A stretch of 64,000 nt of DNA, taken from an uncultured Alphaproteobacteria bacterium (GTDB taxonomy: Bacteria > Pseudomonadota > Alphaproteobacteria > Rickettsiales > UBA1997). The DNA lies in contig CASELL010000001.1 in the NCBI GenBank assembly GCA_949288805.1, positions 89,027-153,026 on the forward strand. Direction: 5' to 3'. Of this stretch, positions 142-28,336 are shown in pieces. Under the pieces are notes generated by a model, which was not told the origin of the DNA, made no database searches, and saw nothing but the letters and a program-made list of their open reading frames with translations. The translations under genes were made by a program, and so were the position numbers. Positions within the stretch are counted from its first letter, which is position 1. Every line of letters begins with the position of its first letter.

Positions 142-212
142 TAAATTTTTCTATTGAAAATAATATTTATCATAATATAATCTTATTGATTTATTAATTA
201 AATGAGGTTTTT

Positions 213-2699: not shown

Positions 2700-2709
2700 A
2701 AAAAATATT

Positions 2710-3339
2710 TTATTTTATTAACAAATATCTAAATAGGTTGTTTTTAGATTTACTATTAACACTAGCAAAATCTTTCCATTCTAGATTATAATTTTTTTCA
2801 ATGTGTAAATTATAAAAATTTTTGCCATATTTTTTCTCAATATCACTTATTATATCATCAAATACAATATCGCCACTAACTATTTTCTCTTGCCACAATG
2901 GAATTATCGACAAAATTGTATTTCTTCTATGGTTACATTTCCAATATTTATAATCATTGGTAATAAATAAAACATAAGCCTTACAATTTAATTTATTAGA
3001 TAATCTTTCCATTCTTTCTATATTAGAATATATTTTATGGCAAGTAATAATTTCTGCTCCATGATTTTTAAATATACATTGTTTAGTTTCTAATTCTGCT
3101 GTTTTGTATTCAAATTCAATAAAATATTTATCTGTATTGTATTCAAAATATAAATCTATATAATTTTTACCGTTTAGAAAATCATATTTTGGATATCTTG
3201 CTATTATTTTAGAAATACCATTAATGTTTAATAATTCTTCTTTAATTCTATATTCTAGGTCTTTTTTATTTTTTATAATATTGTTATTAAAAGATTCTTT
3301 TAATTTCTCTATTAATATATTTATTATATCCTTTTCCAT
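2710..3339 (-). CDS. Hypothetical protein, last gene of the RM-like operon; possible PD-(D/E)xK nuclease fold
   Basis: 209-aa ORF 58 nt downstream of res on the same strand. The segment NYIDLYFEYNTDKYFIEFEYK can be read as D...ExK. No family recognised, so the function is inference only. Confidence 0.45.
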   Translation of the reverse strand: MEKDIINILIEKLKESFNNNIIKNKKDLEYRIKEELLNINGISKIIARYPKYDFLNGKNYIDLYFEYNTDKYFIEFEYKTAELETKQCIFKNHGAEIITCHKIYSNIERMERLSNKLNCKAYVLFITNDYKYWKCNHRRNTILSIIPLWQEKIVSGDIVFDDIISDIEKKYGKNFYNLHIEKNYNLEWKDFASVNSKSKNNLFRYLLIK

Positions 3340-3397
3340 AAATTATTTTTTATTTTTGATATAAATATAATATAATTTATTATAAAAATCAACCAAG

Positions 3398-6300
3398 CTA
3401 TTTCAAAATCTCATTTAACAACCCTTGATAATCTTTAACTACCTCAAATTTAATTTGATTATCACTTACTACTGCAAAATGTTTTTTGGCACAAGATATT
3501 TTGTTATACTCAATATTACGAAGATCAAGACTAGAAATACTACCCTTAGTTTCAGCTATAAAATATATATGTTTTACCTTATCTTTATCAAAAGCAATAG
3601 CCCAATCAGGATTATAATTACCAATAGGAGTTTTTATATAAAAACCACTAGGCAATTTTGTATAAACAACAACATTATCAGCCTCTTCAAGTTCTTTAGC
3701 AAATTCTCTCTCAATATTAGAATCATATAGTAAATAATCATAAATATTTTTTTTAGTTTCTATCATGTTATTATTTACTACACCTTTTAGATTATGATTA
3801 GTAAAGATTTCATTAGTATATTCTCCTTCTTCACCCTCAATTTTTTTATATTTAATATAATCAACTATTAAAGTTGCCTTTTGTTCATTTATAATTTTAG
3901 AAAGTTTATTTATAAAGCTTTCAGGATTAATTTTAAACATATTAAAGACTTCAGGCTTCAATTTTTTTAAAATATCAATAATATCTTTTCTTGTCAAACT
4001 AGTTTTATCAACTAATTCTCCAATTAAATCATATGTGTTTTTATTTTCTATATTAGTAGTTTTATGATATGTTTTTTTCACATTATTACTTTGTTCTTCT
4101 ATATTATCAATAACACCATCAGCAATTTGAATAATAGTATGTTGTATATTTATTGATCCATTTGCCACATTTACCACATTTCTTACCAATTCTTCACTAT
4201 CAAAATCAACAATATAAAAAGTTTTTTTATTTATTTTATTCCATAATTCTTTAAATTCTTTTTTTTCAAAATTTATTTTATTTAATGAAATTTCAGTAGC
4301 TTTTATATTATCATTAACAACTTCAATATTTCCATTTTTACATACTTTATCTAAAACATCAATAATTACATCTTTTACATCATCCAATTCTTCATCCAAA
4401 ACAAGTTTATTTTCCCTTAAATCTTCATAATATTTATCAGTTAATTTACCTTTTTCTATATAATCATTTCTAATTAAAGTTTCATAAATACATATAGCTT
4501 TATTTTGATCAATTACTTCTTCATTTCCATCTTTATTTGTAAATACTCTATTTAAAAATAAATTACTATCAATAGTCGTCAATCTATTTCTAATATCTTC
4601 TTTAAACTCTTCTTGTAATTGTTGACTAAAACTTTCATAACTTTCACTAGCAATAATTGTCAATTTATTAATTTTATGAACTTCATTTTCAGTAACAAAA
4701 GAAGAATCTATTCTATCACCATTTTGATTTACACAAAGCCTCAAACCTCTTCCTATTTCCTGCTTTTTCTTAATTGTCGCATCACTTTCTTTCAAAGTAC
4801 ATATTTGAAAAACATTAGGATTATCCCAACCTTCCTTTAAAGCAGAATGTGAAAAAATAAATCTAACATCATTAGAAAAACTCAACAACAACTCTTTATT
4901 TTTCATTATCAAATCATAACCACTTACATCTTCTTTACTATTAACTCCATCAATAAAATGTTTATTTTTTTTATCCTGCGAGAAATAACCTTCATGAGTT
5001 CTTTTTACATCAATTTTTGTTAAATAATCAAAATATTCTTTTTCACCAAACCTGGGTTGTAAGGACTCAACAATTTTATTATATTCTTCTTCAAACATTT
5101 TAGCATATTCACCATTACTACTTTCTTCATTATCATAAACTCTATATTTTGCTACTTCATCAATAAAAAATAAAGATAAAACTTTTATACCATATTTATA
5201 CAATTCTCTTTCTTTCTCAATATGACTAATAATAGTTTCCCTAATTTGTATTCTTCTTAATTCTTTAATACTATTTTCATTACCTATAATTTGTCCTATT
5301 CTTAATTCAATACCATTTAAAAACTCAATCTTATTTTCCCTAGCATCAATAGTTTTAACAATAAAATTATTTTTATATTCTTGTAAATTATTAGATATAA
5401 AAAAAATATCATCGCCTTCCTCTATTTTTTTAAAAACTTTTCTAACTCCATTACTACCAAAAAAGTTTATTTGAAGTCTTGCCATAGGGGGCACATCTTT
5501 TGACAATATAATATTTTCAAAATAAATATAACCATTAGTATTTGCTTGATTCAAAAAAGTAATACCTTTAACACCTATCTTTTTTACAAGTTTTTTATTA
5601 TAAGCATCAACCGAGTCCAAAGAATAAACAAGATTAAAATTTTCTTTCAATGTCGCAGAATATCTCAAAGTAAACAAAGGATTAAATTCTTTTAATTTTT
5701 GTTTTGTAGAATTACCTTCAACACTCTGTGGTTCGTCAATTATCAATATAGGCCTTGTAGCAGATATAACATCAATAGGTGCTCTTGATCTAAACTCATC
5801 TAATTTAGAATATATTCTTCTTCCATTTTCTCCTTTAGAATTAAAAGCCTGCATATTTATAATCATTACACTAATATCTACACTACTAGCAAAATCATCT
5901 ATTTTACTTAAATTAGCAGAATCATAAATAAAATATTTTATTCTTTTTCCATATTCTTCCAAAAAATGATCTTCTGTAATTTTAAACGTTTTATAAACTC
6001 CTTCTCTAATAGCAACACTAGGCACAACAACAATAAACTTAACCCACCCATACCTTTTATTTAATTCATACATTGTTTTAATATATGTATATGTTTTACC
6101 TGTTCCTGTTTCCATTTCAACACTAAAATTATAGCTACTAGTTTCATTTTTATTTTTAGTAATATAAAGATCTCTAGACACTTCCAGATATTGTTTATTT
6201 TGTATTTTTTGTATATTAGCAAGAATAGTATTTTCTTCTAAATTAATATCACCATTTCTATAAGCATCATTTTCAAGATCAAGATTACCTTCTATAAAAC

Positions 6301-6412
6301 CATTATCTTTTAAATATCTTAAAGTCCCAGATTTATTATTACCTTCAAATATATCACAAATAGCATTACTAGCATCTTCTTGAAACTTTTGATGTTTAAA
6401 TTTTAATTTCAT
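3398..6412 (-). CDS. res: Type III restriction enzyme Res subunit (SF2 helicase/ATPase plus C-terminal PD-(D/E)xK endonuclease)
   Basis: Motif I METGTGKTYTY, motif II LIIDEPQS, late helicase motifs SALKEGWDNPNVF and QEIGRGLRL. C-terminal nuclease motif NPDWAIAF...IYFIAETKG. Confidence 0.9.
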   Translation of the reverse strand: MKLKFKHQKFQEDASNAICDIFEGNNKSGTLRYLKDNGFIEGNLDLENDAYRNGDINLEENTILANIQKIQNKQYLEVSRDLYITKNKNETSSYNFSVEMETGTGKTYTYIKTMYELNKRYGWVKFIVVVPSVAIREGVYKTFKITEDHFLEEYGKRIKYFIYDSANLSKIDDFASSVDISVMIINMQAFNSKGENGRRIYSKLDEFRSRAPIDVISATRPILIIDEPQSVEGNSTKQKLKEFNPLFTLRYSATLKENFNLVYSLDSVDAYNKKLVKKIGVKGITFLNQANTNGYIYFENIILSKDVPPMARLQINFFGSNGVRKVFKKIEEGDDIFFISNNLQEYKNNFIVKTIDARENKIEFLNGIELRIGQIIGNENSIKELRRIQIRETIISHIEKERELYKYGIKVLSLFFIDEVAKYRVYDNEESSNGEYAKMFEEEYNKIVESLQPRFGEKEYFDYLTKIDVKRTHEGYFSQDKKNKHFIDGVNSKEDVSGYDLIMKNKELLLSFSNDVRFIFSHSALKEGWDNPNVFQICTLKESDATIKKKQEIGRGLRLCVNQNGDRIDSSFVTENEVHKINKLTIIASESYESFSQQLQEEFKEDIRNRLTTIDSNLFLNRVFTNKDGNEEVIDQNKAICIYETLIRNDYIEKGKLTDKYYEDLRENKLVLDEELDDVKDVIIDVLDKVCKNGNIEVVNDNIKATEISLNKINFEKKEFKELWNKINKKTFYIVDFDSEELVRNVVNVANGSINIQHTIIQIADGVIDNIEEQSNNVKKTYHKTTNIENKNTYDLIGELVDKTSLTRKDIIDILKKLKPEVFNMFKINPESFINKLSKIINEQKATLIVDYIKYKKIEGEEGEYTNEIFTNHNLKGVVNNNMIETKKNIYDYLLYDSNIEREFAKELEEADNVVVYTKLPSGFYIKTPIGNYNPDWAIAFDKDKVKHIYFIAETKGSISSLDLRNIEYNKISCAKKHFAVVSDNQIKFEVVKDYQGLLNEILK

Positions 6413-6422
6413 TCAATCCTCC

Positions 6423-8459
6423 TTACAATACCTTTATAGTGCAATTATTCATTTTAGATTTAATAATTTCATCGGCTGTAATTTTTTCAGCAGAATCAAC
6501 AAAACAACCATCCCTAAAAAATACTATTTCAGGCTTCAAATCTGCTATATATCTAATAACATTTTCATTTATATTTTTTTCAAAACAAGCAACCAAATTA
6601 TCAATTATATATATTTTACGATTATCAACAACTTCAATTTTATGTTCTATAGTCAATGGAAAACCATTTTCCAACAAACAAGAAAACAACAAATCTTCAT
6701 CTGTTCTATCTTGTTTAATATTAGAAACTAACCCATCTAACATTTCTTGAGTATAATTATTAGGTTCATAATAAACATCTTCCATATTGCTAGAATCAAC
6801 CCTAAATACTCTAAAACCAATATCTAGATCATTTTTACCTGTTGTTTCAACAATTTTATTGCCTGCTCTTCTAATTCTTTCTTTGCCTATTTCACAAATA
6901 TTTTTATAACCAGCTTTGAAAGCTTCACTATCTTCTTTACATTCTTCTTGTAATTGTACCATTATAAATTGTCTATTGCCACCATCTTCTGCATTTAAGT
7001 CCATCACTGCATGTGCTGTTGTGGCAGAGCCGGAGAAAAAGTCTAGGATTATGTCGTCGGGGGTGGTTGAAAGTTTGAGTAAATCATTTATTAAATAAGT
7101 AGATTTTGGATTATCAAAAACTTTTTTATTATTAAATAATAAATTTAATTCATTTGTTGCATTTGCATATTCAGTTTTATACAATATAGACTTACATGTT
7201 GTAGAAGCATATTCTAATAATAATTCATCCATTTCAGGTCTTTTTTTTTGTTTAATTCCATTATTATAAAAAATATCATTATTTTTTAATAGCTTATTAA
7301 AAGTTTCAAAACCGCTAGTCCATCTAACCTTTTCATTAAAAGAATTTATAGGTAAAATAAATTTAAATCCTTGTTTTTCATAAAAAGTTTTTAAATTTTC
7401 AATGTATGTATCATTAAATTGTTTTAAATTTTTATCATAAATTTTTTCAAATTCTTCTTTTGTTATTGAGTATAATTGATTATCTTTTAGTAAAATTGGA
7501 AAATACATATAAGGTCTTTTTTCTCTTTCTTTATCTTGTCCACTTTTTTGAAAAGTTATTTCATTGTAAAACCCAATATCATCTAAATATTTAAATTTAT
7601 TTTCAGTTTTTTTACCAAAAATATTTTCAGTTTTATTAAAACCATATTCTTTTATTTTTTCTTTATTTTTTGAATATATTAAAATTTTATGTCCGACTTC
7701 TGCTATAAAATTATCATTTTCTTTTCCTTTTAAATTATCTAAAATAAATAAAGAACTTATAAAATTTCTCTCTCCAAAAACTTCATCACATATTTTTTTT
7801 AAGTTTGCTTGTTCTCTATCGTCTATTGATATAAAAATTACACCATCATCTGTTAATAAATTTTTTGCTAATTTTAATCTAGAATATATCATTGAACACC
7901 AATCACTATGAAATCTAGGGTTAGTCTCTTTATTTTCTTTAAATTGTTTATTATCTTCTTCATCTCTATAATCAATTTCTTCTTTATATTCTTCATCATC
8001 AATAGTAAAATTATCATTATATGTAAAACTATCTTTACCGGTATTATAAGGCGGATCTATGTATATCATTTTTACTTTATTAAAATATGACTTTTGTAAT
8101 ATTTTTAACACATCGAGATTATCACCTTCAATATATAAATTTTTTGTACTATCCCAATTTTTACTTTCTTCTATACAAGGCCTTAAAGTTTTTGTAATTT
8201 TTTTATTTGCTTCTAATAAAGCCTCTTTTTTACCAACCCAAGTAAATTCATAACTTTCTACTTTATTATCTATAAGTTCATTTGATAATTCTTGTTTTAA
8301 TTTATTAAAATCAATTTTTCTAACTAGGTTGTTGTTTTCGTCAATGCTTTCTGTAAATACTTGAGGAAATAATTGTTCCATGATTTTAATATTATTATTA
8401 ACTATATCAATAGTTGTATTTTCTAATTTTTCAACTTTGAATAAATCATTTATTTTCAT
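6423..8459 (-). CDS. mod: Type III Mod-like N6-adenine (beta-class) DNA methyltransferase
   Basis: Motif IV MIYIDPPYNTG lies N-terminal to AdoMet motif I ILDFFSGSATTAHAV, which is the beta-class order typical of type III Mod. Ends 10 nt upstream of the res start. Confidence 0.9.
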   Translation of the reverse strand: MKINDLFKVEKLENTTIDIVNNNIKIMEQLFPQVFTESIDENNNLVRKIDFNKLKQELSNELIDNKVESYEFTWVGKKEALLEANKKITKTLRPCIEESKNWDSTKNLYIEGDNLDVLKILQKSYFNKVKMIYIDPPYNTGKDSFTYNDNFTIDDEEYKEEIDYRDEEDNKQFKENKETNPRFHSDWCSMIYSRLKLAKNLLTDDGVIFISIDDREQANLKKICDEVFGERNFISSLFILDNLKGKENDNFIAEVGHKILIYSKNKEKIKEYGFNKTENIFGKKTENKFKYLDDIGFYNEITFQKSGQDKEREKRPYMYFPILLKDNQLYSITKEEFEKIYDKNLKQFNDTYIENLKTFYEKQGFKFILPINSFNEKVRWTSGFETFNKLLKNNDIFYNNGIKQKKRPEMDELLLEYASTTCKSILYKTEYANATNELNLLFNNKKVFDNPKSTYLINDLLKLSTTPDDIILDFFSGSATTAHAVMDLNAEDGGNRQFIMVQLQEECKEDSEAFKAGYKNICEIGKERIRRAGNKIVETTGKNDLDIGFRVFRVDSSNMEDVYYEPNNYTQEMLDGLVSNIKQDRTDEDLLFSCLLENGFPLTIEHKIEVVDNRKIYIIDNLVACFEKNINENVIRYIADLKPEIVFFRDGCFVDSAEKITADEIIKSKMNNCTIKVL

Positions 8460-8468
8460 ATATTACCC

Positions 8469-9073
8469 TTATTTTAAAAGGCTTTTCAACCTTTTAATCT
8501 CTTGAGTTATTTCAAATTTTTTGTCTAGTTGTTTTTCATTTTTAGTCTTGTTTTCTAATACTTTTATTTGTTTAATAATTTTCTCTTGTTCTATATTGTT
8601 GATAATTTCTTCTGACAACTGTTTTTCTCCATTAAAATTATCAAGAGATATTTGATTAATAAAATTTCTAAAAATATTTTCAATTTTGTTGCCATCTATT
8701 GTTAATTTTATATCAGATAGCCAACAAGTATTAAATGTTTTTATTATAACATTATTTTCTTTGTAGGAAATATATAATTTATATCTCCCTTCATATTCTA
8801 ATATAAAAACTATAAAATATGGTATAGCTTTATCTATTGCTTCTAAAACTTTATTATCAAGATTAATATTTTTTAATTTTATGTTGAAAAATTGTATTTC
8901 TTGTTCTTCTTCTTTGATGTTTAAAGTTTTTGAACTTATAGAATTAGTCCATATTATTTTTTCTATATTATTAACAAACTCTTTTTTTAGTTGTGAGTTT
9001 TATTTGCTTTTTGATAAAATTTTTCTTTTGGTATAATTTTGTTTATTTCGGTTGATTCGGGTAAACTTAACAT
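8469..9073 (-). pseudogene. DUF4391-family gene interrupted by a -1/+2 frameshift near A-runs (not in the supplied ORF track)
   Basis: The minus-strand ATG at 9071-9073 overlaps the SNF2 stop (ATGTTAA). It reads MLSLPESTEINKIIPKEKFYQKANKTHN* with the stop at 8987-8989. A second frame is open from about 8997 to TAA at 8469-8471: NSQLKKEFVNNIEKIIWTNSISSKTLNIKEEEQEIQFFNIKLKNINLDNKVLEAIDKAIPYFIVFILEYEGRYKLYISYKENNVIIKTFNTCWLSDIKLTIDGNKIENIFRNFINQISL... That frame has no in-frame ATG/GTG/TTG near its 5' end. Both halves fit my recollection of DUF4391 (N-terminal LPxST..NK.IPK.KFY, central IPY.I.F.LE..G.Y). Confidence 0.7.
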
Positions 9074-12294: not shown

Positions 12295-12321
12295 TTTTAT
12301 AAAAATAATAACTGATTAGAT

Positions 12322-12366
12322 TTTATAATTAAACTAATAATTGTCAATTAATAGTTTAATTATAAA
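12322..12366. repeat. 45-bp near-perfect AT-only palindrome centred on TTGTCAA/TTGACAA
   Basis: tttataattaaactaataattg t caattaatagtttaattataaa has 22-nt arms with one mismatch. It lies between the stop of the 1234-aa gene (12420) and the SNF2 start (12294). Confidence 0.6.
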
Positions 12367-12419
12367 TCTTTGGTTTATTAATAAACACCCCAGAACAAGC
12401 AAATTTTAATTAAGTAAAT

Positions 12420-15400
12420 TTATATTATTGGCTCTAAATCATAAGATTTATAAGAATCGATTTGATTTTCAATAAATTCTTTAACATTTTTATAAAAAAT
12501 TTCTTGATCCATATTTTTAATTATCGATTTATTCTCTAAAAATTTTTCAATTTCATTTTTTTTATTAATTAAATCATCTATTTTATTTTCAAAGCCCATA
12601 TAATCTAATAACATTTTATATAAATATCCACATTCAATAAGATTAGTAATTTTATTGCATTCTAAATTTTTATGATTTTTATATTTAATATTTTTATTGG
12701 CTTCTTTATAGTATTTTTTAATAACCATTAAAATAGTAACATCTGTAATGTCAAAATTATATAAAATAATGCCAATATATCTATATATTTCTTTTGTATC
12801 TTTATTATTTCTAACTAATTCAAATAAACCCTGAAACCATTCAAAATTTGGCTTAATATCTATTTTATTTAATATATCAAAATTTAATTTATCGTTGTTT
12901 TTTAAATATTCAATTACAAAATCATAATAAAATTTATAATCTTCTTGAAATTTCTTTTTTAACATTTCTGGAATAGTATTATCTTTTTTTATAAAAGAAT
13001 ACATAGATTTTTCTATATCTATAATATCATTAATATTTTCTTCACAAAATTTTTCATTACTATATAATTTTTCAAAAAGACTTTCTAAATAATAACTAAA
13101 CATATCATCTCTAAATATTTTATCATTATTGAAATTTGTACATTCTTTTAATACTTTAAAAATTAAATCTATATTATTTACATGTTCATGATTTATTAAA
13201 CAAAGTTCAACATATTTTTTTTTATTATATTTTTCTGTATTATTTAAATATATATTAAAAATTTTATAATCTTCAATATAAAAAAATGAACAATTTTCCC
13301 AATAATACTTTTCATTATTTTTAATAATTTTTTTTACTTCATCATCAAATGTTTTATATGATAAAACTTTTTCAATAAACAATACATTTTTATCTAAAAT
13401 ATCAAAAGCTTTATTAAATATATTTTCTTTATCTAAATAATTTAAAAAAATAAATAATTCATGATATTTTTCTTTTCCAAATAATTGTTTAATTGTGTTT
13501 GTTTTATTAATTTTTGTTTTAGCTAATATTTTAAATAAATATTTTTCATTTATTTTTTCATATAATTCTAAAAATTTATTTATATCGTTATCATAATCTC
13601 TTAAAAATTTATCTAATTCATTAATTGTCTTTAATTCTAGATCTTTATCTTTATAAAACTTATAATGATTAATATTACTAAAATATATTACATATTTTTC
13701 AAATTTATCTATATTTATTTTATTACAAATTTTTTCTAATTTTTTTATATTATCATTATCTTTTCTATATTCTAAATATTTTATATTTTCTTTAAATATT
13801 TTTGTTAATTTATTTTTAGATTCGTTATCAAATTTATTAAAATCAATATCGTTTAATAAAGATATATATTTTTCAATAATATCTTTATCTTCCAATAAAT
13901 TAATATTATTACAAAATTTAACAGGTTCTTTTTTTAGGAAATTAAAATATTTTTCTAAAAAATATTGTTTAATACTATTATTTAAAGTTAGTTTTTTAGG
14001 ATATAATTCATTATTTGCTCTCCTTATAAAAATGACAACATTTTTTGCATTTAAAACTTCAAATATAATATTTTTAAACAACTCTTTATCTTTATATTCT
14101 TCTAAAATTTCTCGTAATTCAAAACTATTTAGTATATTTTTATTATCAATCATAAATATTGTTTTTATAAGGTATTCAAAATATTCATATATATTTTTAT
14201 TATAAAATAAATATAATAATTCTTCCAATACACGATCATCATAATTTTTATATTTATACAATATGTATTCAAATATCTCTATAATATCTTTTATATTATT
14301 AATTTCATTTTCTTTGATCATACAATCAATTTTTGTCAAAAACTGCGGAATATCAATCAAAGCTAAGTTAATTAATAATTCAAAATTATTTTTATTAATA
14401 AATTTCTCTATTAATTTATTAAATAATTGCTCAAACCAAACATATTTATAATTATATTTTTTATATAACATATTAAATATATTAAAAACACCAGTAATTA
14501 AATAGTTTGAATATTTATTGTCCTCTTGTTGTAATACTTCATTTAATAAAAAACTTTCTATTTTATCTAAAATAGATTCTATTTCTTTTTCATCAAAATT
14601 ATAGCATTGTATAAAATTAGAAACATAATAAACTTTACAATAATTATTTTCTCTTTCTAATATTAAATTATTTTCTTTTAACTCTTTTATAGTTTTATTA
14701 AATTTATCTTTTATAAATTGTTGTTCATAATTACCATTACCCCATCTATAAAAAGGTAAAATATTTAAAAACAAATCTTTTTGATCTATTTTAAAATTAT
14801 TTATTTTTAATAAACTTTGATGTAAATATTTTAAATTTGTATCACAATCATTAATTAAATCAATATAATTAATAATATTAAATTTGTTTTTAAAATAATA
14901 TAAAACACCTTCTTGTGTTATATTTTCTAGATATATAGTATTATAACTATTAAGAAAATTATTTTTAAAGTCATTACCAATAGGAATTATAATTTTTGTT
15001 TTTTTAGATAAAATAGACATAATTTCATAATTGGGATTTTTATCTATAATATATGGTACTATAATACTATTAATATAAGAATATTTAGATATTTCTAATA
15101 GTGTTTCATTTGTAGTAATTATTTGACTTTTAAAATAAATATTATAGTTATTATATTTTTTTAGATATGATATCAAAAACAACAAAGATTCTTCTTGAGA
15201 ATTTGATTTTATATATAAAATATCGCATTCTTTAAGTTTTTTATCAATATCTTCTTTTTCATATTTTCTTGATAATATTAATTCTTCATTCAAAGGTATT
15301 TTTGTTGAATTTTTCCAAGTTTCAAAAAATTTATCAAACTCATCATAACCATCAATTTTTTGATTACATAAATTTATTTTTAACCAGTTTTCAGTAGACT

Positions 15401-16124
15401 TTGACATTATTAATAAACTATTTAAATCTTGTTTATCAATAATTTTAACATCATAAAAAAAATTCTTTTTTTTATATAAGTCAATTAATTTATTTTTTTT
15501 AGTTTCTTCTGTGTTTTGTTTAGTAATAAAGCAAAAAGTTTTATTTTTGTTTTCTTCATTTTTTAATCTTTTGTTTATATCTAATTCAAATTTTTTGCCC
15601 CAATCTTCTTCTATACCAAATTCAAAAATTATTTCTTTATTACCTATACCAAATTTTGTATCAAAATTAAATTTAGCATAACCATCTGAACCTGACAAAT
15701 AAACTCCATCTTTAATAGGTATTCTAATTGAATCATTATTTCCATATATATCAACAATTAATCTGAGAATAAATTCAGCGAAAGTTTCTCCATTAGAAAT
15801 AATAGAAATATAATCTTTTTTTACAATCATAAGATTTTCATTTTTTAAAAAATTTTTTAATTCTGTTTTTGTAAGATTAAAATCTTTACAAGTATCTTCA
15901 ATTCCAAAATTATTGTATGAATTAATAATATTCCATTTTTCTTCATTACTTCTATCTTCAATTTTTACTTTAAAATTATTTTCTTTAGAAATTTTAATTA
16001 AAGTTTTTTGAGATATATTAAAATACTCTGCTGTTTCTTTTAAAGAATGTGTTTTTCTATATTCTTTAATTAAATTAATAGTTTTTAAATCTTTAATTAC
16101 AACTCTTTTTTTTCTTTCTACCAT
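12420..16124 (-). CDS. Giant orphan protein (1234 aa): N-terminal helix-turn-helix module(s), possible Mrr-like nuclease-type segment, long helical-repeat body
   Basis: Uninterrupted 3.7-kb ORF with a GAGGT SD 7 nt upstream. HTH-like SLKETAEYFNISQKTLIKISKEN and a second GIEDTCKDFNLTKTELKNFLKN. The segment FAEFILRLIVDIYG...LSGSDGYAKF...EIIFEFGIEEDWGKK resembles restriction-endonuclease-like N-domains only loosely. No Walker A found. Confidence 0.55.
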   Translation of the reverse strand: MVERKKRVVIKDLKTINLIKEYRKTHSLKETAEYFNISQKTLIKISKENNFKVKIEDRSNEEKWNIINSYNNFGIEDTCKDFNLTKTELKNFLKNENLMIVKKDYISIISNGETFAEFILRLIVDIYGNNDSIRIPIKDGVYLSGSDGYAKFNFDTKFGIGNKEIIFEFGIEEDWGKKFELDINKRLKNEENKNKTFCFITKQNTEETKKNKLIDLYKKKNFFYDVKIIDKQDLNSLLIMSKSTENWLKINLCNQKIDGYDEFDKFFETWKNSTKIPLNEELILSRKYEKEDIDKKLKECDILYIKSNSQEESLLFLISYLKKYNNYNIYFKSQIITTNETLLEISKYSYINSIIVPYIIDKNPNYEIMSILSKKTKIIIPIGNDFKNNFLNSYNTIYLENITQEGVLYYFKNKFNIINYIDLINDCDTNLKYLHQSLLKINNFKIDQKDLFLNILPFYRWGNGNYEQQFIKDKFNKTIKELKENNLILERENNYCKVYYVSNFIQCYNFDEKEIESILDKIESFLLNEVLQQEDNKYSNYLITGVFNIFNMLYKKYNYKYVWFEQLFNKLIEKFINKNNFELLINLALIDIPQFLTKIDCMIKENEINNIKDIIEIFEYILYKYKNYDDRVLEELLYLFYNKNIYEYFEYLIKTIFMIDNKNILNSFELREILEEYKDKELFKNIIFEVLNAKNVVIFIRRANNELYPKKLTLNNSIKQYFLEKYFNFLKKEPVKFCNNINLLEDKDIIEKYISLLNDIDFNKFDNESKNKLTKIFKENIKYLEYRKDNDNIKKLEKICNKINIDKFEKYVIYFSNINHYKFYKDKDLELKTINELDKFLRDYDNDINKFLELYEKINEKYLFKILAKTKINKTNTIKQLFGKEKYHELFIFLNYLDKENIFNKAFDILDKNVLFIEKVLSYKTFDDEVKKIIKNNEKYYWENCSFFYIEDYKIFNIYLNNTEKYNKKKYVELCLINHEHVNNIDLIFKVLKECTNFNNDKIFRDDMFSYYLESLFEKLYSNEKFCEENINDIIDIEKSMYSFIKKDNTIPEMLKKKFQEDYKFYYDFVIEYLKNNDKLNFDILNKIDIKPNFEWFQGLFELVRNNKDTKEIYRYIGIILYNFDITDVTILMVIKKYYKEANKNIKYKNHKNLECNKITNLIECGYLYKMLLDYMGFENKIDDLINKKNEIEKFLENKSIIKNMDQEIFYKNVKEFIENQIDSYKSYDLEPII

Positions 16125-16303
16125 AATTTACCTCGTTTAAAAATATTGAATAATTTAAATAATTCACTAAAAATACCTTTATTATTTTTTTTATTTACAT
16201 TACTATATATATTACAATTATTACAATTATAATTATTATATGTATTATATATATTATTAATTTTGTTTTTTTTATGTTTAAAATGTTGATATTTATTAAC
16301 CAT
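16118..16303 (-). CDS. Questionable 61-aa Asn/Lys-rich upstream ORF overlapping the start of the giant gene
   Basis: The stop overlaps the giant gene's ATG (ATGGTAG). Contains a CNNC motif. Its low-complexity composition is what a random ORF in AT-rich DNA would look like. Confidence 0.15.
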   Translation of the reverse strand: MVNKYQHFKHKKNKINNIYNTYNNYNCNNCNIYSNVNKKNNKGIFSELFKLFNIFKRGKLW

Positions 16304-16422
16304 ATATTAAATATTTATTTATTATTGTAAATATAATAATAATTTTTTTATTTGTCAAGTATTTTTTATTAAATTAGTAAACTTTTTAAACAAAATTATA
16401 AAATAAATACAATTTTTAACAA

Positions 16423-17730
16423 TTACTTATCAAACAACCAATCTAAAACATTTAATCTTTTAATTCCTTTTATATTGCCATCATCTTCGTCCATAGTAAG
16501 TAAGTATTTTGGATAATTATCATCTATACTATTTAAAGATCTCAATTCTCTTTCTAATGTTTCTTTAGAATTATATGTATAAAAAGCGACCTGATAATAT
16601 TCAGTTAATCCTTCTTTTTGTGCTACAAAATCTACTTCTATATTGCTTCTATTATTTATTCTGCCAACATATACCTTATAACCTCTTCTTAATAATTCTA
16701 GATAAACTATATTTTCTAATATTCTACCATGATCTCCTTCTTTATAACCCAATAAAGCAGATCTTAAACCTAAATCTACCATATAATATTTTGAATTAGT
16801 ATTTGTTAATATTTGTTTACCTTTAATATCAAATCTATCACATTTATATAATAAATAACTATCCAAAAGTCCATTTAAATAATTAGCAATAGTCATAGCA
16901 GATAAATTTTGAGGAGTATTTTTTAAACTTTTTTCTATTCCTCTAATTGAAGTTTCGTTTCCTATATTGTCAAATAAGAATCTTGTTAAAGCATCAAGTT
17001 TATCAACATTTGATATATTGTATCTTTTAATTATATCTTTTTGTAAAGTACTTGTATATATAGTATCATTTAAGTAATCATTTATTAATTGTCTATTGCC
17101 TAAAAAACTAACTGTTTGTGGGAAACTACTTTCTGTTATATATTTTTTATATAAACTAAAGGAATCATTTCTATTTAAATAATCTTCTTTATTAAGTGAA
17201 ATAAATTTTGTAGTTTCATTATAAGCTATATAATATTCTTTAAAAGAATATGGTAACATTTTAATTTCTATATATCTACCACCCAAGGCATTTGCTATAT
17301 CACTAGAAAACATATAGGCATTAGATCCAGTTAAATATATGTCTATATTTCCTTGTAATCTTAAAGTATTAACTATTTTTTCCCAACCTTCTAATAATTG
17401 TACTTCATCTATAATTAAATAATTTATTTTATTTTTATTTATTTTTTTTAAAATGAAATCTAACATTTTATTATAATCAACTAAAAAATTTTTATCATTA
17501 TAAATAAGACCAATTTCTCTTACTTGTAATAAATCTTCTAAATTAATACTTATGATATTATTAGTTTTAGTTTCTAAACTAGATTTAAAATAAGATAATA
17601 AACTAGATTTTCCACATCTTCTAACGCCAGTAATAATTTTTATAATATCAGTTTTTCCAGATAAAGATTCTAATTTATCAGAATAAACTTCTCTTCTAAA
17701 AAATATTTGTCTACTTGATTTATTAGTCAT
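16423..17730 (-). CDS. AAA+ ATPase of the COG1373 type (AAA domain plus C-terminal DUF4143)
   Basis: Walker A GVRRCGKSSLL, Walker B YLIIDEVQLLEGW. The C-terminal part (LENIVYLELLRRGYKVYVGR...EVDFV) is typical of DUF4143 proteins. The track ORF starts at 17787, but the Met at 17730 (MTNKSSRQIF) is the more likely start. Confidence 0.8.
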   Translation of the reverse strand: MTNKSSRQIFFRREVYSDKLESLSGKTDIIKIITGVRRCGKSSLLSYFKSSLETKTNNIISINLEDLLQVREIGLIYNDKNFLVDYNKMLDFILKKINKNKINYLIIDEVQLLEGWEKIVNTLRLQGNIDIYLTGSNAYMFSSDIANALGGRYIEIKMLPYSFKEYYIAYNETTKFISLNKEDYLNRNDSFSLYKKYITESSFPQTVSFLGNRQLINDYLNDTIYTSTLQKDIIKRYNISNVDKLDALTRFLFDNIGNETSIRGIEKSLKNTPQNLSAMTIANYLNGLLDSYLLYKCDRFDIKGKQILTNTNSKYYMVDLGLRSALLGYKEGDHGRILENIVYLELLRRGYKVYVGRINNRSNIEVDFVAQKEGLTEYYQVAFYTYNSKETLERELRSLNSIDDNYPKYLLTMDEDDGNIKGIKRLNVLDWLFDK

Positions 17731-17838
17731 TATTCTAATTTTATTAATATAATTAAGTATAATATACAAAATTACAAAAATCAACAATTTTGTCTAATAT
17801 ATTAAAAAAATAAACAAAATTTTAATTATTTATTATAA

Positions 17839-19237
17839 TTAAGAATCAATAAATACAATACTATTTAAACATTTATCAATGTTATCTTTTGTTTTTTCTA
17901 GCTTTATATTATCAGTATCGCCGTATTTGTTTTTGAAGTCGGTGGCTTGTTGTTCTAGTTTGTTGAGAAATTGTGAAACTTCTTTATAATTACCATTTTC
18001 AAAGTGATAGCTTAGATTACTACTGTTATTATTTTTATAATCATTTAATATTTTATTACATTCTTTTATACCTTTAAAAAAATCAACAAAATTACCAAAT
18101 TTTATTGTAAAATCTGTTTGACGAAAACAATAATTTATGTCAATAAAATTTGTAGAAAGTGTTACTCTATAACAAAATTTTTTATTAAAACATTTAAGTA
18201 TATTTTCTTTCTCCTTTTCATATTTATTAATATCATACAAAATACAATCTTTATTATATTTAAAGCCCTTTCTAGCAAATATTTCATTAACAATATAATC
18301 CCAATAAAATTCACTTTTATATTTATTATAAAATTCAAAAAGATAATCAAAAATTAAGTTAAATTGCCTACAAGTTATATTATTTGATGATGCCAGTTTA
18401 TTTAAAGATAAATAAATACTCACTATTATAAACATCTTTTTCTTCTTTAATATCAAAACTAAACTTTTCTTTTAGTTTTGTTTTTATATAACTTAAATAG
18501 TCAATTTTAGATAATTTAATTTCTTCTACAAAAAATCTTACAAAATAATTTTCACCATCTGACTCTTCTTTAAAATTATACATTGCTTGTAAAGAATGAT
18601 TTAAGGCCCTTCTATTAGCAAAATAAAAAATAATTATTCCATCGATATCAAAAAAATGTTTTGTTGTTTCAAGTATTTTCATGGCATAGTCAGGCCTACA
18701 TCTGTCTAATTCATCAATAATTAGAACAAGTTTTTTTGAATCTGTTTTTTTAATTAAAGTTGTTAAAGATTTTTTAAATTCTGTTATTGGGTCTTGTGGT
18801 TTTTTCTCAAAATATTCAATAAATTCTTTAGCAGAAGGGCAAAAAACATTCGAAGCAACTTTAACAAGTTCATACATAACACAAGCACTTTTTTGAATAA
18901 AATCTTTAATTTTTTCTAATCCAATTTTACTTCTATAATATTCTAATATTTTATTACAAATTAAATTTAGTGGTTGTTCGTAGTAATCGTTTTCCCAAGC
19001 ACTAAAATAAACGGCATCAATATTTTTGTCTAATAAAGTTTTTGTTAATGCTCTGGCAAAGTATGTTTTTCCGGTTCCAAAATCGCTTTCAATTAAAAAT
19101 ACGTTTCTTAATTCTTCAAAGTATTTTTGTTTGCCAATTTCTAGTTCGGGGTGTTCTGTTTTTGTGAAGTTGAATTCTTCTGTTTTTGTGATTATTTTGT
19201 CTAGTAGTTTTTGTCTTTCGGGAAATAGGTCTGGCAT
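17839..19237 (-). pseudogene. KAP-family P-loop NTPase split into two overlapping ORFs (279 aa + 205 aa) by a frameshift
   Basis: The upstream ORF has Walker A SDFGTGKTYFARAL and the KAP signature LVLIIDELDRCRPDYAMKILETTKHFF. The ORFs overlap at 18398-18456 in different frames. ...VYNSEYLFIFK* and ...SIYLSLNKLASSNNITCRQFNLIFDYLFEFY align in succession with IYNSIYIKIAF...NLREINYAFRFIEYYF of the intact paralog. Confidence 0.65.
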
Positions 19238-19259
19238 TTTAGTTTATGGTTATTAATAA

Positions 19260-20783
19260 TTAATATAACATTTCAAAACATTGTCTTAAAATTGATTTTT
19301 CTTTAAAATAATTTATATTATGAAGTAAATTCATAATTTTAGGATATTCATTAGATTTTTCATTATTTTCATCTTTTACCATCATAAAATCAAAAAACTC
19401 TTTATCAAAAATATATTTATAATTTTCATAATTTAAAGATTTAATTTTATTATATATTTCGTCATTATATTCTTTATTAAGCGATCCATTAGCGCAACTA
19501 ATATTATTAAAAATACATAAACCAATAAAATTTTTAATATTATATTCCTTATCTAATCTACAAGAAAAATTAATATTTTTTAAAAAATTACCTAAAATAT
19601 TAATATTTATATCTACAATATCATTTGTCTGATTATCAAATAATTTTTTATAAATTTCATTATTCTTTGTTTTTAAACAAATTAAAAACATTAAAGATAA
19701 AACATATAAGAAATCTAATTCTTCATTAAAATAATACTCAATAAATCTAAAAGCATAATTAATTTCTCTTAAATTTAATTTAAATAAATCAATAAATAAA
19801 TACGATATGTAATTTATAAACTCTTTTTCACCAAATGTAGGATAACTACCAAAAGCTATTTTAATATAGATACTATTATATATTTTATTTGTAATATCAG
19901 CCTCTTTAATTTTATTCTTTATATACTTTTTTAAATCAATATTATTATCAACATTTCTCAAATCAAAATGATAATCAAAAAATTTCTTAATATAACTATC
20001 AAAATCCATACTCAAACCATAAACAACTTTCATTGAAGATTTTAAATTATTGTCATCAACTGCTATTAAAAATACCATATTTTCAACATCATATATATGA
20101 TTTATTGCTTCTAAAAATTCAACAGCATAGTCAGGCCTACATCTGTCTAATTCATCAACTATAATTAATAATTTTGTGTTTTTTTGATTTTTATTTAAAG
20201 ATTCAATATATTGACCTAATACATTTTGTATATTTTGTATATATTTTTTGTAATTTTTATATTCTTCATCAATATTGTTTTGTTGTAATTGTTCTAGAAA
20301 ATCTTTATTTAAACAAGCATCTTTAATTTCTTTTATTATTTCTTTACTTTCTTCTTTTATATATAATTTATCTAACAATAAATTAAAAAATGATTTCCCA
20401 ATTACAGGTAACGAATTTTTGCCAACTTTTGTTGCTATTGTGGTAAATTTAGATAAAGTATCTTTAAAACTTTTTTTAATATTCTTTTCGTCTATAGAAT
20501 CTAAAATAGACAAACCAATACTTAATATAGGATTGTTTAAAACATCATCTTGCCAAGCATTAATTTTTAAGATTTTAAAATTATTTTTAAAATCAAAATC
20601 TTCATGTTCTCCTTCTATAAAATTTTGTAAAGAATTTAAAAAATATGTTTTGCCAGTTCCATATTTGCCATATAAAGCTAAAGTATATGTTTTGTGCTCT
20701 TTGTTTGTTTCTGAAAATATTTCAATATTTCTGATAATACTTTTTATTAATTCTTTTCTTGCTTCTAATAAATCTTCAAACAT
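19260..20783 (-). CDS. KAP-family P-loop NTPase (intact paralog, 507 aa)
   Basis: Walker A LYGKYGTGKTYFLNSL and KAP Walker B region LLIIVDELDRCRPDYAVEFLEAINHIY. Confidence 0.8.
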   Translation of the reverse strand: MFEDLLEARKELIKSIIRNIEIFSETNKEHKTYTLALYGKYGTGKTYFLNSLQNFIEGEHEDFDFKNNFKILKINAWQDDVLNNPILSIGLSILDSIDEKNIKKSFKDTLSKFTTIATKVGKNSLPVIGKSFFNLLLDKLYIKEESKEIIKEIKDACLNKDFLEQLQQNNIDEEYKNYKKYIQNIQNVLGQYIESLNKNQKNTKLLIIVDELDRCRPDYAVEFLEAINHIYDVENMVFLIAVDDNNLKSSMKVVYGLSMDFDSYIKKFFDYHFDLRNVDNNIDLKKYIKNKIKEADITNKIYNSIYIKIAFGSYPTFGEKEFINYISYLFIDLFKLNLREINYAFRFIEYYFNEELDFLYVLSLMFLICLKTKNNEIYKKLFDNQTNDIVDININILGNFLKNINFSCRLDKEYNIKNFIGLCIFNNISCANGSLNKEYNDEIYNKIKSLNYENYKYIFDKEFFDFMMVKDENNEKSNEYPKIMNLLHNINYFKEKSILRQCFEMLY

Positions 20784-21085: not shown

Positions 21086-21493
21086 ATGAAAAAAATATTT
21101 TTAATACTATTCATACTACTTGGTGCCTGCACCATAAAACAAAACAGAGGCTTTTACTTCACCGACAAAGACAAGGTTGAAAACTTCGACGTCTACAACT
21201 TCACAAAACAAGATGTAATAGACAACATAGGCTACCCATCCGTAGAATTAAACGACAATACTTGGTTATATTATTCATACACAACAGAAAATTACAATTT
21301 TTTAAGACCAAAAATAAAAAGTGAAGATATTTTAATTGTGTACTTTGACGAGAAAGACAATGTAAGTAAATATTCTTACACTACAAAAGAAGACACAAAA
21401 AATCTAAAAAGTATAAAAAAAGAAGATACGGGCGAGAAAAAGAATATATTTAAAAGTATTTTTGATGGATTAATGTTCACTCCAACAATGTAG
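21086..21493 (+). CDS. BamE (SmpA/OmlA)-like outer-membrane lipoprotein
   Basis: Lipobox LLGAC. FTKQDVIDNIGYPSVELNDNTWLYYSY fits the SmpA_OmlA pattern. Size 135 aa. Confidence 0.6.
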   Translation: MKKIFLILFILLGACTIKQNRGFYFTDKDKVENFDVYNFTKQDVIDNIGYPSVELNDNTWLYYSYTTENYNFLRPKIKSEDILIVYFDEKDNVSKYSYTTKEDTKNLKSIKKEDTGEKKNIFKSIFDGLMFTPTM

Positions 21494-21499
21494 GTTTTT

Positions 21500-27684: not shown

Positions 27685-27696
27685 ATATTAACCAAA

Positions 27697-28272: not shown

Positions 28273-28336
28273 CTAGATAAAATATAATATAAGCTTCAAA
28301 AAAGTCAATAACTTTTAATTGAAATGAAATAGAACG

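What the first reader, a model, noticed from the sequence alone, without database searches (positions are those of the whole stretch)
2710..20783. 18-kb single-strand defence-type island in an otherwise reduced, housekeeping-dense endosymbiont-like genome
Eleven consecutive minus-strand coding units, counting the frameshifted DUF4391 gene and the two halves of the split KAP gene, lie between two plus-strand housekeeping clusters: dsbA-like/ompA-like/exonuclease on the left and bamE-like/rdgB on the right. None is a core-metabolism gene. The units are an SNF2 helicase, DUF4391, Mod, Res, a small PD-(D/E)xK-like protein, a 1234-aa HTH giant, a DUF4143 AAA+ ATPase and two KAP NTPases. Two are frameshifted, which fits either recent decay or on/off switching. 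I saw no integrase, tRNA or obvious flanking direct repeat at either border, so the mode of acquisition is unclear. For a genome with rvh-type T4SS architecture and this packing density, spending about 28% of a 64-kb window on defence-like genes is unusual.
Basis: partly seen in the sequence, partly recalled or inferred. Interest (0 to 1): 0.75.

Follow-up and report, generated by a model that had tools for sequence, protein, structure and literature searches.

The report
Strain-variable phage-defence hotspot in gut Rickettsiales
The 18-kb stretch is a real cluster of anti-phage-type genes that differs between near-identical strains of an uncultured gut Rickettsiales-like bacterium; most parts are known kinds, but one 1,234-residue protein belongs to a widespread family that nobody has characterised.

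Summary
Window 2710-20783 carries ten minus-strand genes, none housekeeping. They are p209, type III Res and Mod, a frameshifted DUF4391, an SNF2 helicase, a 1234-aa giant with a 61-aa upstream ORF, a DUF4143 ATPase and two KAP NTPases.

PADLOC models assign Res/Mod to type III R-M, the SNF2 to "HKD+Snf2", the DUF4143 protein to PDC-S01 and both KAPs to PDC-S20.

The locus is accessory. A strain with 98.6% identical flanks (L091) lacks window 2706-17818, a 15.1-kb segment. It joins exo directly to diverged KAP genes, followed by other defence genes. A sister species (L090) has unrelated genes after exo.

There is no integrase, tRNA or flanking repeat, and GC3 equals the background. The element is therefore ameliorated or came from a similar donor.

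Both frameshifts look like decay, not switching. The DUF4391 lesion is identical in four assemblies. The KAP split is a private 5-bp deletion.

SNF2-DUF4391-Mod-Res is a cassette also found on Listeria, Enterococcus and Acinetobacter plasmids.

The giant is a divergent member of an uncharacterised ~1260-aa family (PHROG 18693). It has a predicted restriction-endonuclease-like N-domain and often sits in defence islands.

Verdict: a genuine defence hotspot of ordinary kind, with one promising unknown.

The parts
1881..2699 (+). Left anchor: PolB-exonuclease-like 3'-5' exonuclease (exo), the last conserved gene before the variable locus
   Evidence: PF10108/PF13482. Ten upstream genes, recJ through exo, keep their order in the sister species L090. 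Homology to L091 and L090 ends within 6 bp of the stop codon.
2706..17818 (.). 15.1-kb segment present in the window strain and absent in strain L091. It runs from p209 to the DUF4143 ATPase.
   Evidence: blastn of L091 against the window gives 98.6% identity up to 2705, then resumes at 17819 at 83%. The junction alignment A2 shows only A-rich microhomology and no target-site duplication.
2710..3339 (-). p209, a small protein of unknown function and the last gene of the R-M operon. Its stop codon lies 10 bp from the exo stop.
   Evidence: No family hit. The only homologue is weak: 25% identity, 7e-7, on a Sphingobium plasmid near an R-M subunit. A D...ExK-like motif (DLYF...EFEYK) is visible by eye only.
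3398..6412 (-). Type III restriction subunit (Res): an SF2 translocase with a C-terminal PD-ExK endonuclease
   Evidence: PADLOC REase_III 1.2e-287 over the full length. PF04851 4.5e-14 and PF19778 3e-35 at residues 887-994. 43-45% identical to the Listeria and Acinetobacter plasmid cassettes.
6423..8459 (-). Type III modification methyltransferase (Mod). The DPPY motif precedes the FSGSAT AdoMet motif.
   Evidence: PADLOC MTase_III 1.3e-195 over the full length and PF01555 3.9e-32. No simple-sequence repeat in the gene.
8469..9073 (-). DUF4391 pseudogene with a single 1-nt frame loss between 8999 and 8990. Its start overlaps the SNF2 stop.
   Evidence: Frames read. The repaired protein hits PF14335 at 8.9e-39. 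The lesion is identical in three other assemblies from different samples. There is no canonical slippery site, and no start codon for the downstream 170 codons.
9067..12294 (-). SNF2-family helicase with an N-terminal PLD-like domain that lacks the HxK catalytic motif. First gene of the cassette.
   Evidence: PADLOC C3a139 'HKD+Snf2' 7.7e-118 over the full length. PF00176 and PF00271. 48-49% identical over 99% of its length to 'helicase-related protein' of Listeria, Enterococcus and Acinetobacter plasmids. HxK is absent in alignment A5.
12420..16124 (-). Giant protein of 1234 aa and 15.8% GC. It has an N-terminal extension with HTH-like repeats, a predicted restriction-endonuclease-like domain (about aa 110-250), an alpha/beta domain, and a roughly 800-aa helical region.
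   Evidence: No Pfam, PADLOC, NCBIfam or PDB hit. phmmer finds 202 representatives, mostly 1240-1280 aa. Relatives hit phrog_18693 over the full length. The AF2 model of aa 100-460 has pLDDT 88.6. Family-invariant G145, D147 and E168, and near-invariant K178, are all present. dN/dS is 0.37 against strain L103.
16118..16303 (-). p61, a small N/K/Y-rich ORF that overlaps the giant's start by 7 nt. Status uncertain.
   Evidence: Called as a gene in other assemblies, at 61 aa and 59 aa. No family hit. The best promoter-like site on this strand lies just upstream at 16358-16330 (weak evidence).
16423..17787 (-). AAA_14 + DUF4143 ATPase (PADLOC candidate PDC-S01)
   Evidence: PF13173 6.4e-29, PF13635 1.1e-18, PDC-S01 4.6e-128. 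dN/dS is 0.03 against L103.
17834..19237 (-). KAP-B, a KAP-family P-loop NTPase. In this window it is split by a 5-bp deletion at 18414/18415.
   Evidence: PF07693 3.6e-26 and PDC-S20 1.9e-44. Intact at 467 aa in L007 and 460 aa in L103. The 5 bp (CTTTG on the coding strand) are present in L007, L103 and L091.
19260..20783 (-). KAP-A, an intact KAP-family P-loop NTPase and a paralogue of KAP-B
   Evidence: PF07693 2.4e-31, PDC-S20 1.5e-56, phrog_8614 2.6e-44. Against L091 the P-loop half is 95-99% identical, while the C-terminal half is 52-70% identical with indels.
21086..22099 (+). Right anchor: BamE-like lipoprotein and RdgB/Ham1
   Evidence: PF04355 2.8e-05 and PF01725. Homology to L091 stops at about 20890, upstream of KAP-A.

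Best explanation
The interval downstream of exo is a strain-variable defence hotspot in the chromosome of an uncultured, very AT-rich, gut-associated Rickettsiales-like bacterium. In this strain it holds four independent modules.

(A) One operon, SNF2 - DUF4391 - Mod - Res - p209. This is a type III restriction-modification system of the plasmid-borne, helicase-associated kind.
- Inferred from established type III R-M biology: Mod methylates one strand of an asymmetric site, and Res uses ATP to move along DNA and cuts unmodified invaders.
- The SNF2/DUF4391 pair is an accessory of unknown role. It is probably disabled here, because DUF4391 carries a fixed frameshift.

(B) The giant protein, with a small upstream ORF. 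I infer that it is a single-protein sensor-nuclease. A restriction-endonuclease-like N-domain would be the effector and the long helical region the sensor.

(C) A DUF4143 AAA ATPase.

(D) Two KAP NTPases. Their P-loop halves are conserved, while their C-terminal halves are swapped or diversified between strains.

Shown here: gene content, family assignments, presence/absence polymorphism, mosaic divergence, and the nature of the two lesions.

Inferred: anti-phage function of modules B to D, and acquisition by recombination without a dedicated integrase.
For: - Family assignments for the island proteins.
- The cassette has the same gene order on Listeria and Acinetobacter plasmids.
- Tight spacing and overlaps support operon A: the SNF2 stop overlaps the DUF4391 start, and Mod and Res are 10 nt apart.
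- Strain L091 places exo directly beside KAP-B/KAP-A, followed by PDC-S39 and a type IIG R-M fragment.
- Sister species L090 has the upstream synteny but no island.
- Both junctions recur in independent assemblies from several samples: left L001-L005, right L007-L009 and L103-L104.
- Between the window and L091, the KAP genes have dS of 0.20 against 0.006-0.026 in the flanks, and dN/dS of 0.74-0.77. The divergence is concentrated in the C-terminal halves.
- The DUF4143 gene and the giant are under purifying selection (dN/dS 0.03 and 0.37).
- Giant family: 202 representatives of uniform length, a confident model, and neighbours such as R-M, Abi, SIR2, RES-Xre, RT+SLATT and DUF4238 in at least 6 of 12 contexts examined.
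Against: - No protein was tested experimentally.
- PDC-S01 and PDC-S20 are candidate systems, not proven ones.
- GC3 is indistinguishable from the host, so horizontal origin rests on presence/absence only. The direction of the event, insertion here or deletion in L091, is undetermined.
- The giant itself does not hit phrog_18693 directly. Its nuclease fold rests on sub-threshold Foldseek matches.
- Several family contexts show no defence genes: the Shewanella, Arthrobacter and R. leguminosarum plasmids and L098.
- All relatives are metagenome contigs. Only one contig (L091) shows the short allele.
Confidence: 0.8

Rival explanations
1. The locus is ancestral and stable: the gene set is inherited vertically and is part of the core genome of this lineage.
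For: GC3 and codon composition match the rest of the window. There is no integrase, tRNA or repeat at the borders. All contigs with an identical exo or RdgB protein carry the island.
Against: L091 has flanks 98.6% identical but lacks 15.1 kb and has different genes beyond KAP-A. Sister species L090 has unrelated genes after exo. Five GTDB relatives (exo 69-77% identical) show none of the island genes within 10 kb of exo.
Confidence: 0.05
2. The island is a discrete mobile element (ICE, prophage remnant or transposon) that integrated as one 18-kb unit.
For: The R-M cassette is plasmid-borne elsewhere. The KAP-A and giant families have PHROG counterparts. The segment is bounded exactly by gene ends.
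Against: There is no recombinase, transposase, att-like repeat or tRNA at or inside the island. The polymorphic unit is 15.1 kb, not 18 kb. The KAP pair stays behind in L091, which argues for modular turnover rather than one element.
Confidence: 0.1
3. The frameshifts are phase-variable on/off switches, as in phasevarion-type regulation of type III systems.
For: Type III mod genes are often phase-variable (established knowledge). KAP-B is intact in some samples and broken in the window.
Against: No simple-sequence repeat lies in or near mod, res, DUF4391 or the KAP genes. Homopolymers are no longer than 9 nt and occur at background density. The DUF4391 lesion is identical in four assemblies. 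It lies in a 10-nt stretch with only a 4-A run and no slippery heptamer. The KAP change is a 5-bp deletion in non-repetitive sequence, seen only in the window.
Confidence: 0.04
4. The island is a metagenome assembly artefact: DNA from another organism joined to a Rickettsiales contig.
For: All sequences are metagenome assemblies. The window is not identical to any contig on record (99.87-99.96% identical to scaffold_107).
Against: The same left and right junctions occur in independent ENA and Logan assemblies from different runs. GC3, amino-acid bias and GC skew are continuous across both borders.
Confidence: 0.02

Closest known systems
Type III restriction-modification systems (EcoP15I/EcoP1I type)
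   Same: Mod is followed by Res in one operon. Mod is an N6_N4 methyltransferase with DPPY before the AdoMet motif. Res has SF2 helicase motifs and a C-terminal PD-ExK endonuclease.
   Different: Res reaches only 360 bits against the 564-bit cutoff of the NCBIfam equivalog PRK15483. The pair is embedded in a larger operon, with an SNF2 helicase and DUF4391 upstream and p209 downstream.
SNF2 ('helicase-related protein') - DUF4391 - Mod - Res cassette of Listeria, Enterococcus, Brochothrix, Leuconostoc and Acinetobacter plasmids
   Same: Same four genes in the same order and orientation. Identities are SNF2 48-49%, Res 43-45%, Mod 36-38% and DUF4391 32%. The PLD-like N-domain lacks HxK in all three aligned members of this subfamily.
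   Different: Here the cassette is chromosomal, in a genome of about 23% GC. DUF4391 is frameshifted, and an extra gene (p209) follows Res. A full-text search found only two papers that mention DUF4391. I did not open them, and I found no experimental study of the cassette.
DISARM (DrmD SNF2 helicase plus methyltransferase)
   Same: An SNF2 helicase sits next to an adenine methyltransferase. DrmD models are the second-best hits (PADLOC 2e-39; NCBIfam 2.9e-47).
   Different: The score of 161.6 bits is far below the 610-bit cutoff. There is no DrmA, DrmB (DUF1998) or DrmC in the locus.
KAP-family NTPase defence candidates (PADLOC PDC-S20; distantly QatA and PifA)
   Same: KAP P-loop domain, a single-gene arrangement and a variable C-terminal region.
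   Different: The QatA score is 41-49 bits against a 600-bit cutoff, and QatBCD are absent. Here there are two tandem paralogues, one of them decaying.
PHROG phrog_18693 family of ~1260-aa proteins, annotated 'helix-turn-helix transcriptional regulator' or hypothetical on Rhizobium, Shewanella, Cupriavidus and Ralstonia replicons
   Same: Length, a collinear alignment with conserved residues along its whole length, invariant G-D...E...K in the N-domain, and an optional N-terminal HTH extension.
   Different: The window protein is extremely diverged and AT-biased: 35% identity to its nearest relative, over 250 residues only. It gives no direct PHROG hit. Its N-terminal extension does not match XRE-type HTH models.

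Membership tests
Type III R-M system | Mod subunit: N6-adenine methyltransferase of the type III class | tested here: met
   PADLOC MTase_III PDLC03634 1.3e-195, residues 10-677 on profile positions 3-620 of 621. PF01555 scores 112 bits against a cutoff of 26.7.
Type III R-M system | Res subunit: SF2 ATPase with a C-terminal PD-(D/E)xK endonuclease | tested here: met
   REase_III PDLC03647 1.2e-287 over the full length. PF04851 and PF19778 both above cutoff. The GTGKT, DEPQ and PD...ETK motifs are seen in the translation.
Type III R-M system | mod immediately upstream of res in one transcription unit | tested here: met
   The Mod stop is at 6423 and the Res start at 6412, on the same strand.
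Type III R-M system | Equivalence to the EcoP15I-type enzyme (NCBIfam equivalog PRK15483) | tested here: not met
   360 bits against a 564-bit cutoff. This is a distinct subfamily.
Type III R-M system | ATP-dependent cleavage that needs two inversely oriented unmethylated sites; hemimethylation by Mod | not testable with these tools
   Needs biochemistry or methylome data.
Phase-variable type III mod (phasevarion) | Simple-sequence repeat tract within or upstream of mod | tested here: not met
   No di- to heptanucleotide repeat of 4 or more units in mod other than two 8-bp dinucleotide runs. Homopolymers are no longer than 9 nt and at background density.
SNF2-DUF4391-Mod-Res cassette | Four genes in this order on one strand | tested here: met
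   Same order in NC_022045.1 (Listeria) and NZ_CP051210.1 (Acinetobacter).
SNF2-DUF4391-Mod-Res cassette | Intact DUF4391 gene | tested here: not met
   Frame loss between 8999 and 8990, identical in four assemblies.
DISARM | DrmA, DrmB (DUF1998) and DrmC core, with DrmD above the model cutoff | tested here: not met
   DrmD scores 161.6 bits against a 610-bit cutoff. No DrmA-, DrmB- or DrmC-type gene lies in the island.
KAP NTPase (PF07693) / PADLOC PDC-S20 | KAP P-loop domain above the Pfam gathering score, plus a full-length PDC-S20 match | tested here: met
   KAP-A scores 109.5 bits and KAP-B 92.5 bits against a cutoff of 20. PDC-S20 matches at 1.5e-56, residues 28-486 on profile positions 36-455 of 464.
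Qat system (QatA) | QatA above cutoff, with QatBCD neighbours | tested here: not met
   41-49 bits against a 600-bit cutoff. No QatB, QatC or QatD.
PADLOC PDC-S01 (AAA_14 + DUF4143) | Full-length match to the PDC-S01 model, with both Pfam domains | tested here: met
   PDLC04787 4.6e-128, residues 28-453 on profile positions 9-408 of 412. PF13173 and PF13635 both above cutoff.
PHROG 18693 family (giant) | Significant match to the family profile | tested here: inconclusive
   The window protein has no direct hit at E<=1. It matches P0002 at 1e-26 and P0123 at 4.8e-19, and these hit phrog_18693 at 1.8e-75 and 3.6e-64 over the full length. Family-invariant residues are present along the whole protein.
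PD-(D/E)xK (restriction-endonuclease fold) for the giant's N-domain | Alpha-beta-beta-beta-alpha-beta core with conserved acidic residues and lysine; structural match to known nucleases | tested here: inconclusive
   The model has pLDDT 88.6 with the expected order of elements. D147 and E168 are invariant and K178 nearly invariant. Foldseek finds nothing in the PDB at E<=1e-3. It finds only local BFVD matches to Mrr-type and other restriction endonucleases, at probability 0.90-0.98 and E 0.02-0.12.
Classical genomic island / integrative element | Integrase or transposase, tRNA or att target, flanking direct repeats, deviant composition | tested here: not met
   None found. The only recombinase nearby is XerC, 7.7 kb away.
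Defence island / hotspot (operational definition) | Several defence-family genes clustered at a locus whose content varies between close relatives while the flanks are conserved | tested here: met
   The window, L091 and L090 share the left flank but differ in cargo. The cargo in the window and in L091 hits PADLOC models.

The most novel reading that the evidence does not exclude
The 1234-aa giant, and the ~1260-aa family it belongs to (PHROG 18693, with 202 representative clusters across Proteobacteria, Bacteroidota, Actinomycetota, Endomicrobia and prophages), is an undescribed single-gene anti-phage or anti-plasmid system. A non-canonical restriction-endonuclease-fold N-domain (G-D...E-x-G...K) would be the effector. 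The ~900-residue helical body would be the sensor, with an optional HTH for autoregulation. A second, smaller point: the SNF2/DUF4391 pair is a dispensable add-on to type III R-M, since this lineage keeps intact Mod and Res reading frames while a broken DUF4391 is fixed.
Probability: 0.35. Interest if true: 0.65.

Novelty: new member of a known kind. Interest (0 to 1): 0.5.

Why it matters
Rickettsiales-type genomes are usually regarded as poor in defence systems because they are sheltered inside host cells. Here a very AT-rich, T4SS-bearing member of that group from animal guts keeps a locus where defence genes are gained, lost and diversified between strains that are about 98.6% identical in the flanking DNA. 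This implies ongoing exposure to phages or plasmids, and therefore a less sheltered lifestyle than the 'endosymbiont' label suggests.

The locus also offers two practical leads:
- A natural knockout of DUF4391 in a widely spread but unstudied four-gene type III R-M cassette.
- A divergent member of a large, uniform-length protein family with no Pfam, NCBIfam, PADLOC or PDB match. This family repeatedly sits among defence genes and could be tested directly in E. coli.

Tried and rejected
- **Synteny test in GTDB genomes.** It returned 74 loci, but the closest species (exo 69-77% identical) have completely different neighbours around exo. They could not define an empty site. The useful relatives came from the homologue search and contig look-ups.
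- **Word-indexed homologue searches with the giant and with the family alignment.** These found only 2 and 6 proteins. I attribute this to low-complexity words swamping the candidate list. The exhaustive HMMER search was needed.
- **First structure prediction, with a 2-sequence alignment.** It was unusable at pLDDT 48.6, so I repeated it with 60 sequences.
- **Foldseek on the two-domain model.** No significant PDB hit. A domain-only query was not possible.
- **Metagenome scan with the family alignment.** I examined neighbourhoods on annotated plasmids instead.
- **Promoter and terminator scans.** Uninformative at this AT content: 230 sites found against 198 expected, and no terminators.
- **Repeat search at the borders.** Only AT-rich chance matches.
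- **Literature searches for the cassette and for defence systems in Rickettsiales.** Nothing specific.
- **Programmed frameshifting or transcriptional slippage for DUF4391.** Considered and rejected. The A7 run lies after the frame-0 stop, and the 10-nt shift window has no slippery heptamer.
- **A functional link between the giant and the SNF2 helicase.** Its nearest homologue in L087 also sits next to a PLD-SNF2 gene and a methyltransferase. However, the two SNF2 proteins are only 25% identical, and ten other family contexts lack any SNF2 gene. The link is best read as co-residence in defence islands.

Full report
**Source and setting**

The window is 99.9% identical to ENA metagenome scaffold ERZ16268199:scaffold_107 and to several Logan and ENA contigs from related runs. 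The closest species-level genomes are uncultured 'Rickettsiales bacterium' MAGs from animal guts, for example RGIG8782 from water deer colon, whose exo protein is 77% identical.

GC content is 21-30% across the window and falls to 14% inside the island. The rest of the window encodes housekeeping genes together with VirB3 and VirB4 and a GTA-like tail protein.

**Observation**

Ten minus-strand ORFs fill 2710-20783. The flanks are DsbA, OmpA-like and exo on the left, and BamE-like and RdgB on the right.

The island covers 28.2% of the window. Co-orientation is not special, because almost all genes up to 50.5 kb share the minus strand.

**Family assignments**

| Gene | Assignment |
|---|---|
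| Res | REase_III 1.2e-287, with ResIII and RE_endonuc domains |
| Mod | MTase_III 1.3e-195 |
| DUF4391 (repaired) | PF14335 8.9e-39 |
| SNF2 | PADLOC C3a139 'HKD+Snf2' 7.7e-118; DrmD far below cutoff |
| DUF4143 ATPase | PDC-S01 4.6e-128 |
| KAP-A / KAP-B | PF07693 and PDC-S20; QatA far below cutoff |
| p209, p61, giant | no hit in Pfam or PADLOC; none in NCBIfam for p209 and the giant (p61 not run); none in PHROGs except marginal N-terminal hits for the giant (E 0.024 and 0.18) |

The nearest recombinase, at 28442-29326, is XerC.

**Is the locus accessory?**

Composition gives no signal. GC3 of island genes is 0.08-0.15, against 0.09-0.17 elsewhere (one gene, bamE, at 0.33). Only GC1 and GC2 drop in the giant, KAP-A and p209, which reflects K/N/I/Y/F-rich proteins. 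No tRNA, flanking repeat or simple-sequence repeat marks the borders.

Comparison with relatives is decisive.
- A homologue search with exo led to L091. Its exo is 99% identical and its left flank 98.6% identical at the nucleotide level.
- In L091, homology to the window stops at 2705, 6 bp after the exo stop codon. It resumes at 17819, at only 83% identity, through both KAP genes, and ends at about 20890.
- Beyond that point L091 carries a PDC-S39 protein and a type IIG R-M fragment instead of bamE.
- The window therefore has 15.1 kb (2706-17818) that L091 lacks. The junction shows only A-rich microhomology.
- In the sister species L090 (exo 89% identical), ten upstream genes are collinear. 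Downstream lie glycosyltransferases, PRPP synthase and a YafQ toxin.
- Both window junctions recur in independent assemblies, which excludes a chimera.

**The two lesions**

DUF4391 loses its frame between 8999 and 8990. There is no slippery site and no downstream start codon. The sequence is identical in three other assemblies, so this is a fixed pseudogene.

KAP-B is split by a 5-bp deletion present only in the window. L007 (467 aa), L103 (460 aa) and L091 all retain the five bases. L091's copy lacks the ATG start codon. There are no repeat tracts. These features indicate decay (or, for the 5-bp case, a possible assembly error) rather than switching.

**KAP pair**

Against L091 the P-loop halves are 92-99% identical. 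The C-terminal halves and one internal patch are 48-70% identical, with indels. dS is 0.20, against 0.006-0.026 in the flanking genes, and dN/dS is 0.74-0.77. This pattern fits allelic exchange or diversification of a recognition region.

**Cassette**

tblastn of the SNF2 protein against plasmids finds 110 near-full-length matches. The best are 48-49% identical, in Listeria, Enterococcus, Brochothrix, Leuconostoc and Acinetobacter. In those records the gene is followed by DUF4391, a methyltransferase and a Res-like helicase, in the same order as here.

The PLD-like N-domain of this subfamily lacks the HxK motif that is present in a PLD-SNF2 protein from L087. Only two papers in the searched library mention DUF4391 at all.

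**Giant**

The exhaustive HMMER search with residues 100-460 found 202 representatives, most of them 1240-1280 aa. Some are about 1350 aa and carry an XRE-type HTH. Relatives match phrog_18693 end to end, although the window protein does not match it directly.

No family member has a Pfam (beyond the HTH), NCBIfam or PDB sequence match; PADLOC was run on the window giant and its nearest homologue only, also without a hit.

Conserved residues span the whole alignment. G145, D147 and E168 are invariant and K178 is nearly so. With 60 sequences, AlphaFold2 gives pLDDT 88.6 and pTM 0.86 for residues 100-460. Foldseek finds nothing significant in the PDB. In BFVD it finds only local, sub-threshold matches of the first ~140 residues to Mrr-type and other restriction endonucleases.

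On annotated replicons the family gene stands alone, with no conserved partner.
- Contexts with defence genes nearby: type I R-M (Acetobacter), Abi/SIR2/RES-Xre/AbiEii (Thalassospira), RT+SLATT and a Shedu fragment (R. tropici), PDDEXK/ImmA/DUF4238 (Adhaeribacter, Bradyrhizobium), PLD-SNF2 plus type IIG R-M (L087), and this island.
- Contexts without them: the Shewanella, Arthrobacter and R. leguminosarum plasmids, and L098, where a Ser/Thr kinase gene overlaps the family gene.
- Sources for these contexts.

dN/dS against L103 is 0.37.

**Verdict**

This is a defence hotspot with modular, strain-level turnover, built mostly from known or candidate defence families.

What is new is modest: such a hotspot in a gut Rickettsiales-like lineage, a naturally broken DUF4391 in an unstudied type III cassette, and a divergent member of an uncharacterised large-protein family that merits testing.

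Noticed in passing
window 22103-23514: A hipA/hipB toxin-antitoxin pair (HipA_C 3.4e-42, Couple_hipA, HTH_3) lies just right of bamE/rdgB.
   Followed up: partly
window 25197-28272: A three-gene set: an ATP-grasp (RimK-like) protein, a 7TM transglutaminase-like protein and a RimB-like protein. It resembles a peptide-modification module, which is unexpected in a reduced genome.
   Followed up: no
window 28336-29326: tRNA-Gln sits directly next to a tyrosine recombinase. The recombinase scores as XerC (1.3e-85), so it is probably housekeeping rather than an island integrase.
   Followed up: partly
window 46901-50539; L084-L086: A 1212-aa GTA-type tail protein (GTA_TIM, Phage-tail_3, Rcc01698_C) lies beside virB3/virB4. 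In contig L086, which shares an identical FabH protein, that neighbour is replaced by Cupin and HxlR genes. This looks like a second variable junction.
   Followed up: no
window 57430-58305: A DUF5131 gene sits between ybeY and guanylate kinase.
   Followed up: no
window 102-182 vs L001 8222-8302: Twelve of the 17 mismatches between the window and scaffold_107 over 12.7 kb cluster in this 80-bp intergenic patch upstream of dsbA. It is a local hypervariable or recombined spot.
   Followed up: no
L091 11916-14589: The alternative cargo in the sister strain is a 593-aa protein that hits PDC-S39 and has an R-x4-H (HEPN-like) motif near its C-terminus, plus the C-terminal part of a type IIG R-M enzyme. 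The contig ends before the right flank is reached.
   Followed up: partly
L098 10001-15002: A giant-family member (P0276, 1222 aa) lies inside an LPS/polysaccharide gene cluster. Its 3' end overlaps by 11 nt the start of a 447-aa Ser/Thr protein kinase gene, which suggests a two-gene variant of the family.
   Followed up: no
L087 1951-15025: The giant's nearest homologue (P0002) sits with a PLD-SNF2 helicase, an Eco57I/TaqI_C type IIG enzyme, an FGase-like protein and a Fic protein. This is another defence-type island, in a genome of about 35% GC.
   Followed up: partly
window 12420-16124: At 15.8% GC (GC2 0.139, GC3 0.077), with 54% of residues K, N, I, Y or F, the giant is the most AT-biased gene in the window. 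It still shows purifying selection against L103.
   Followed up: partly
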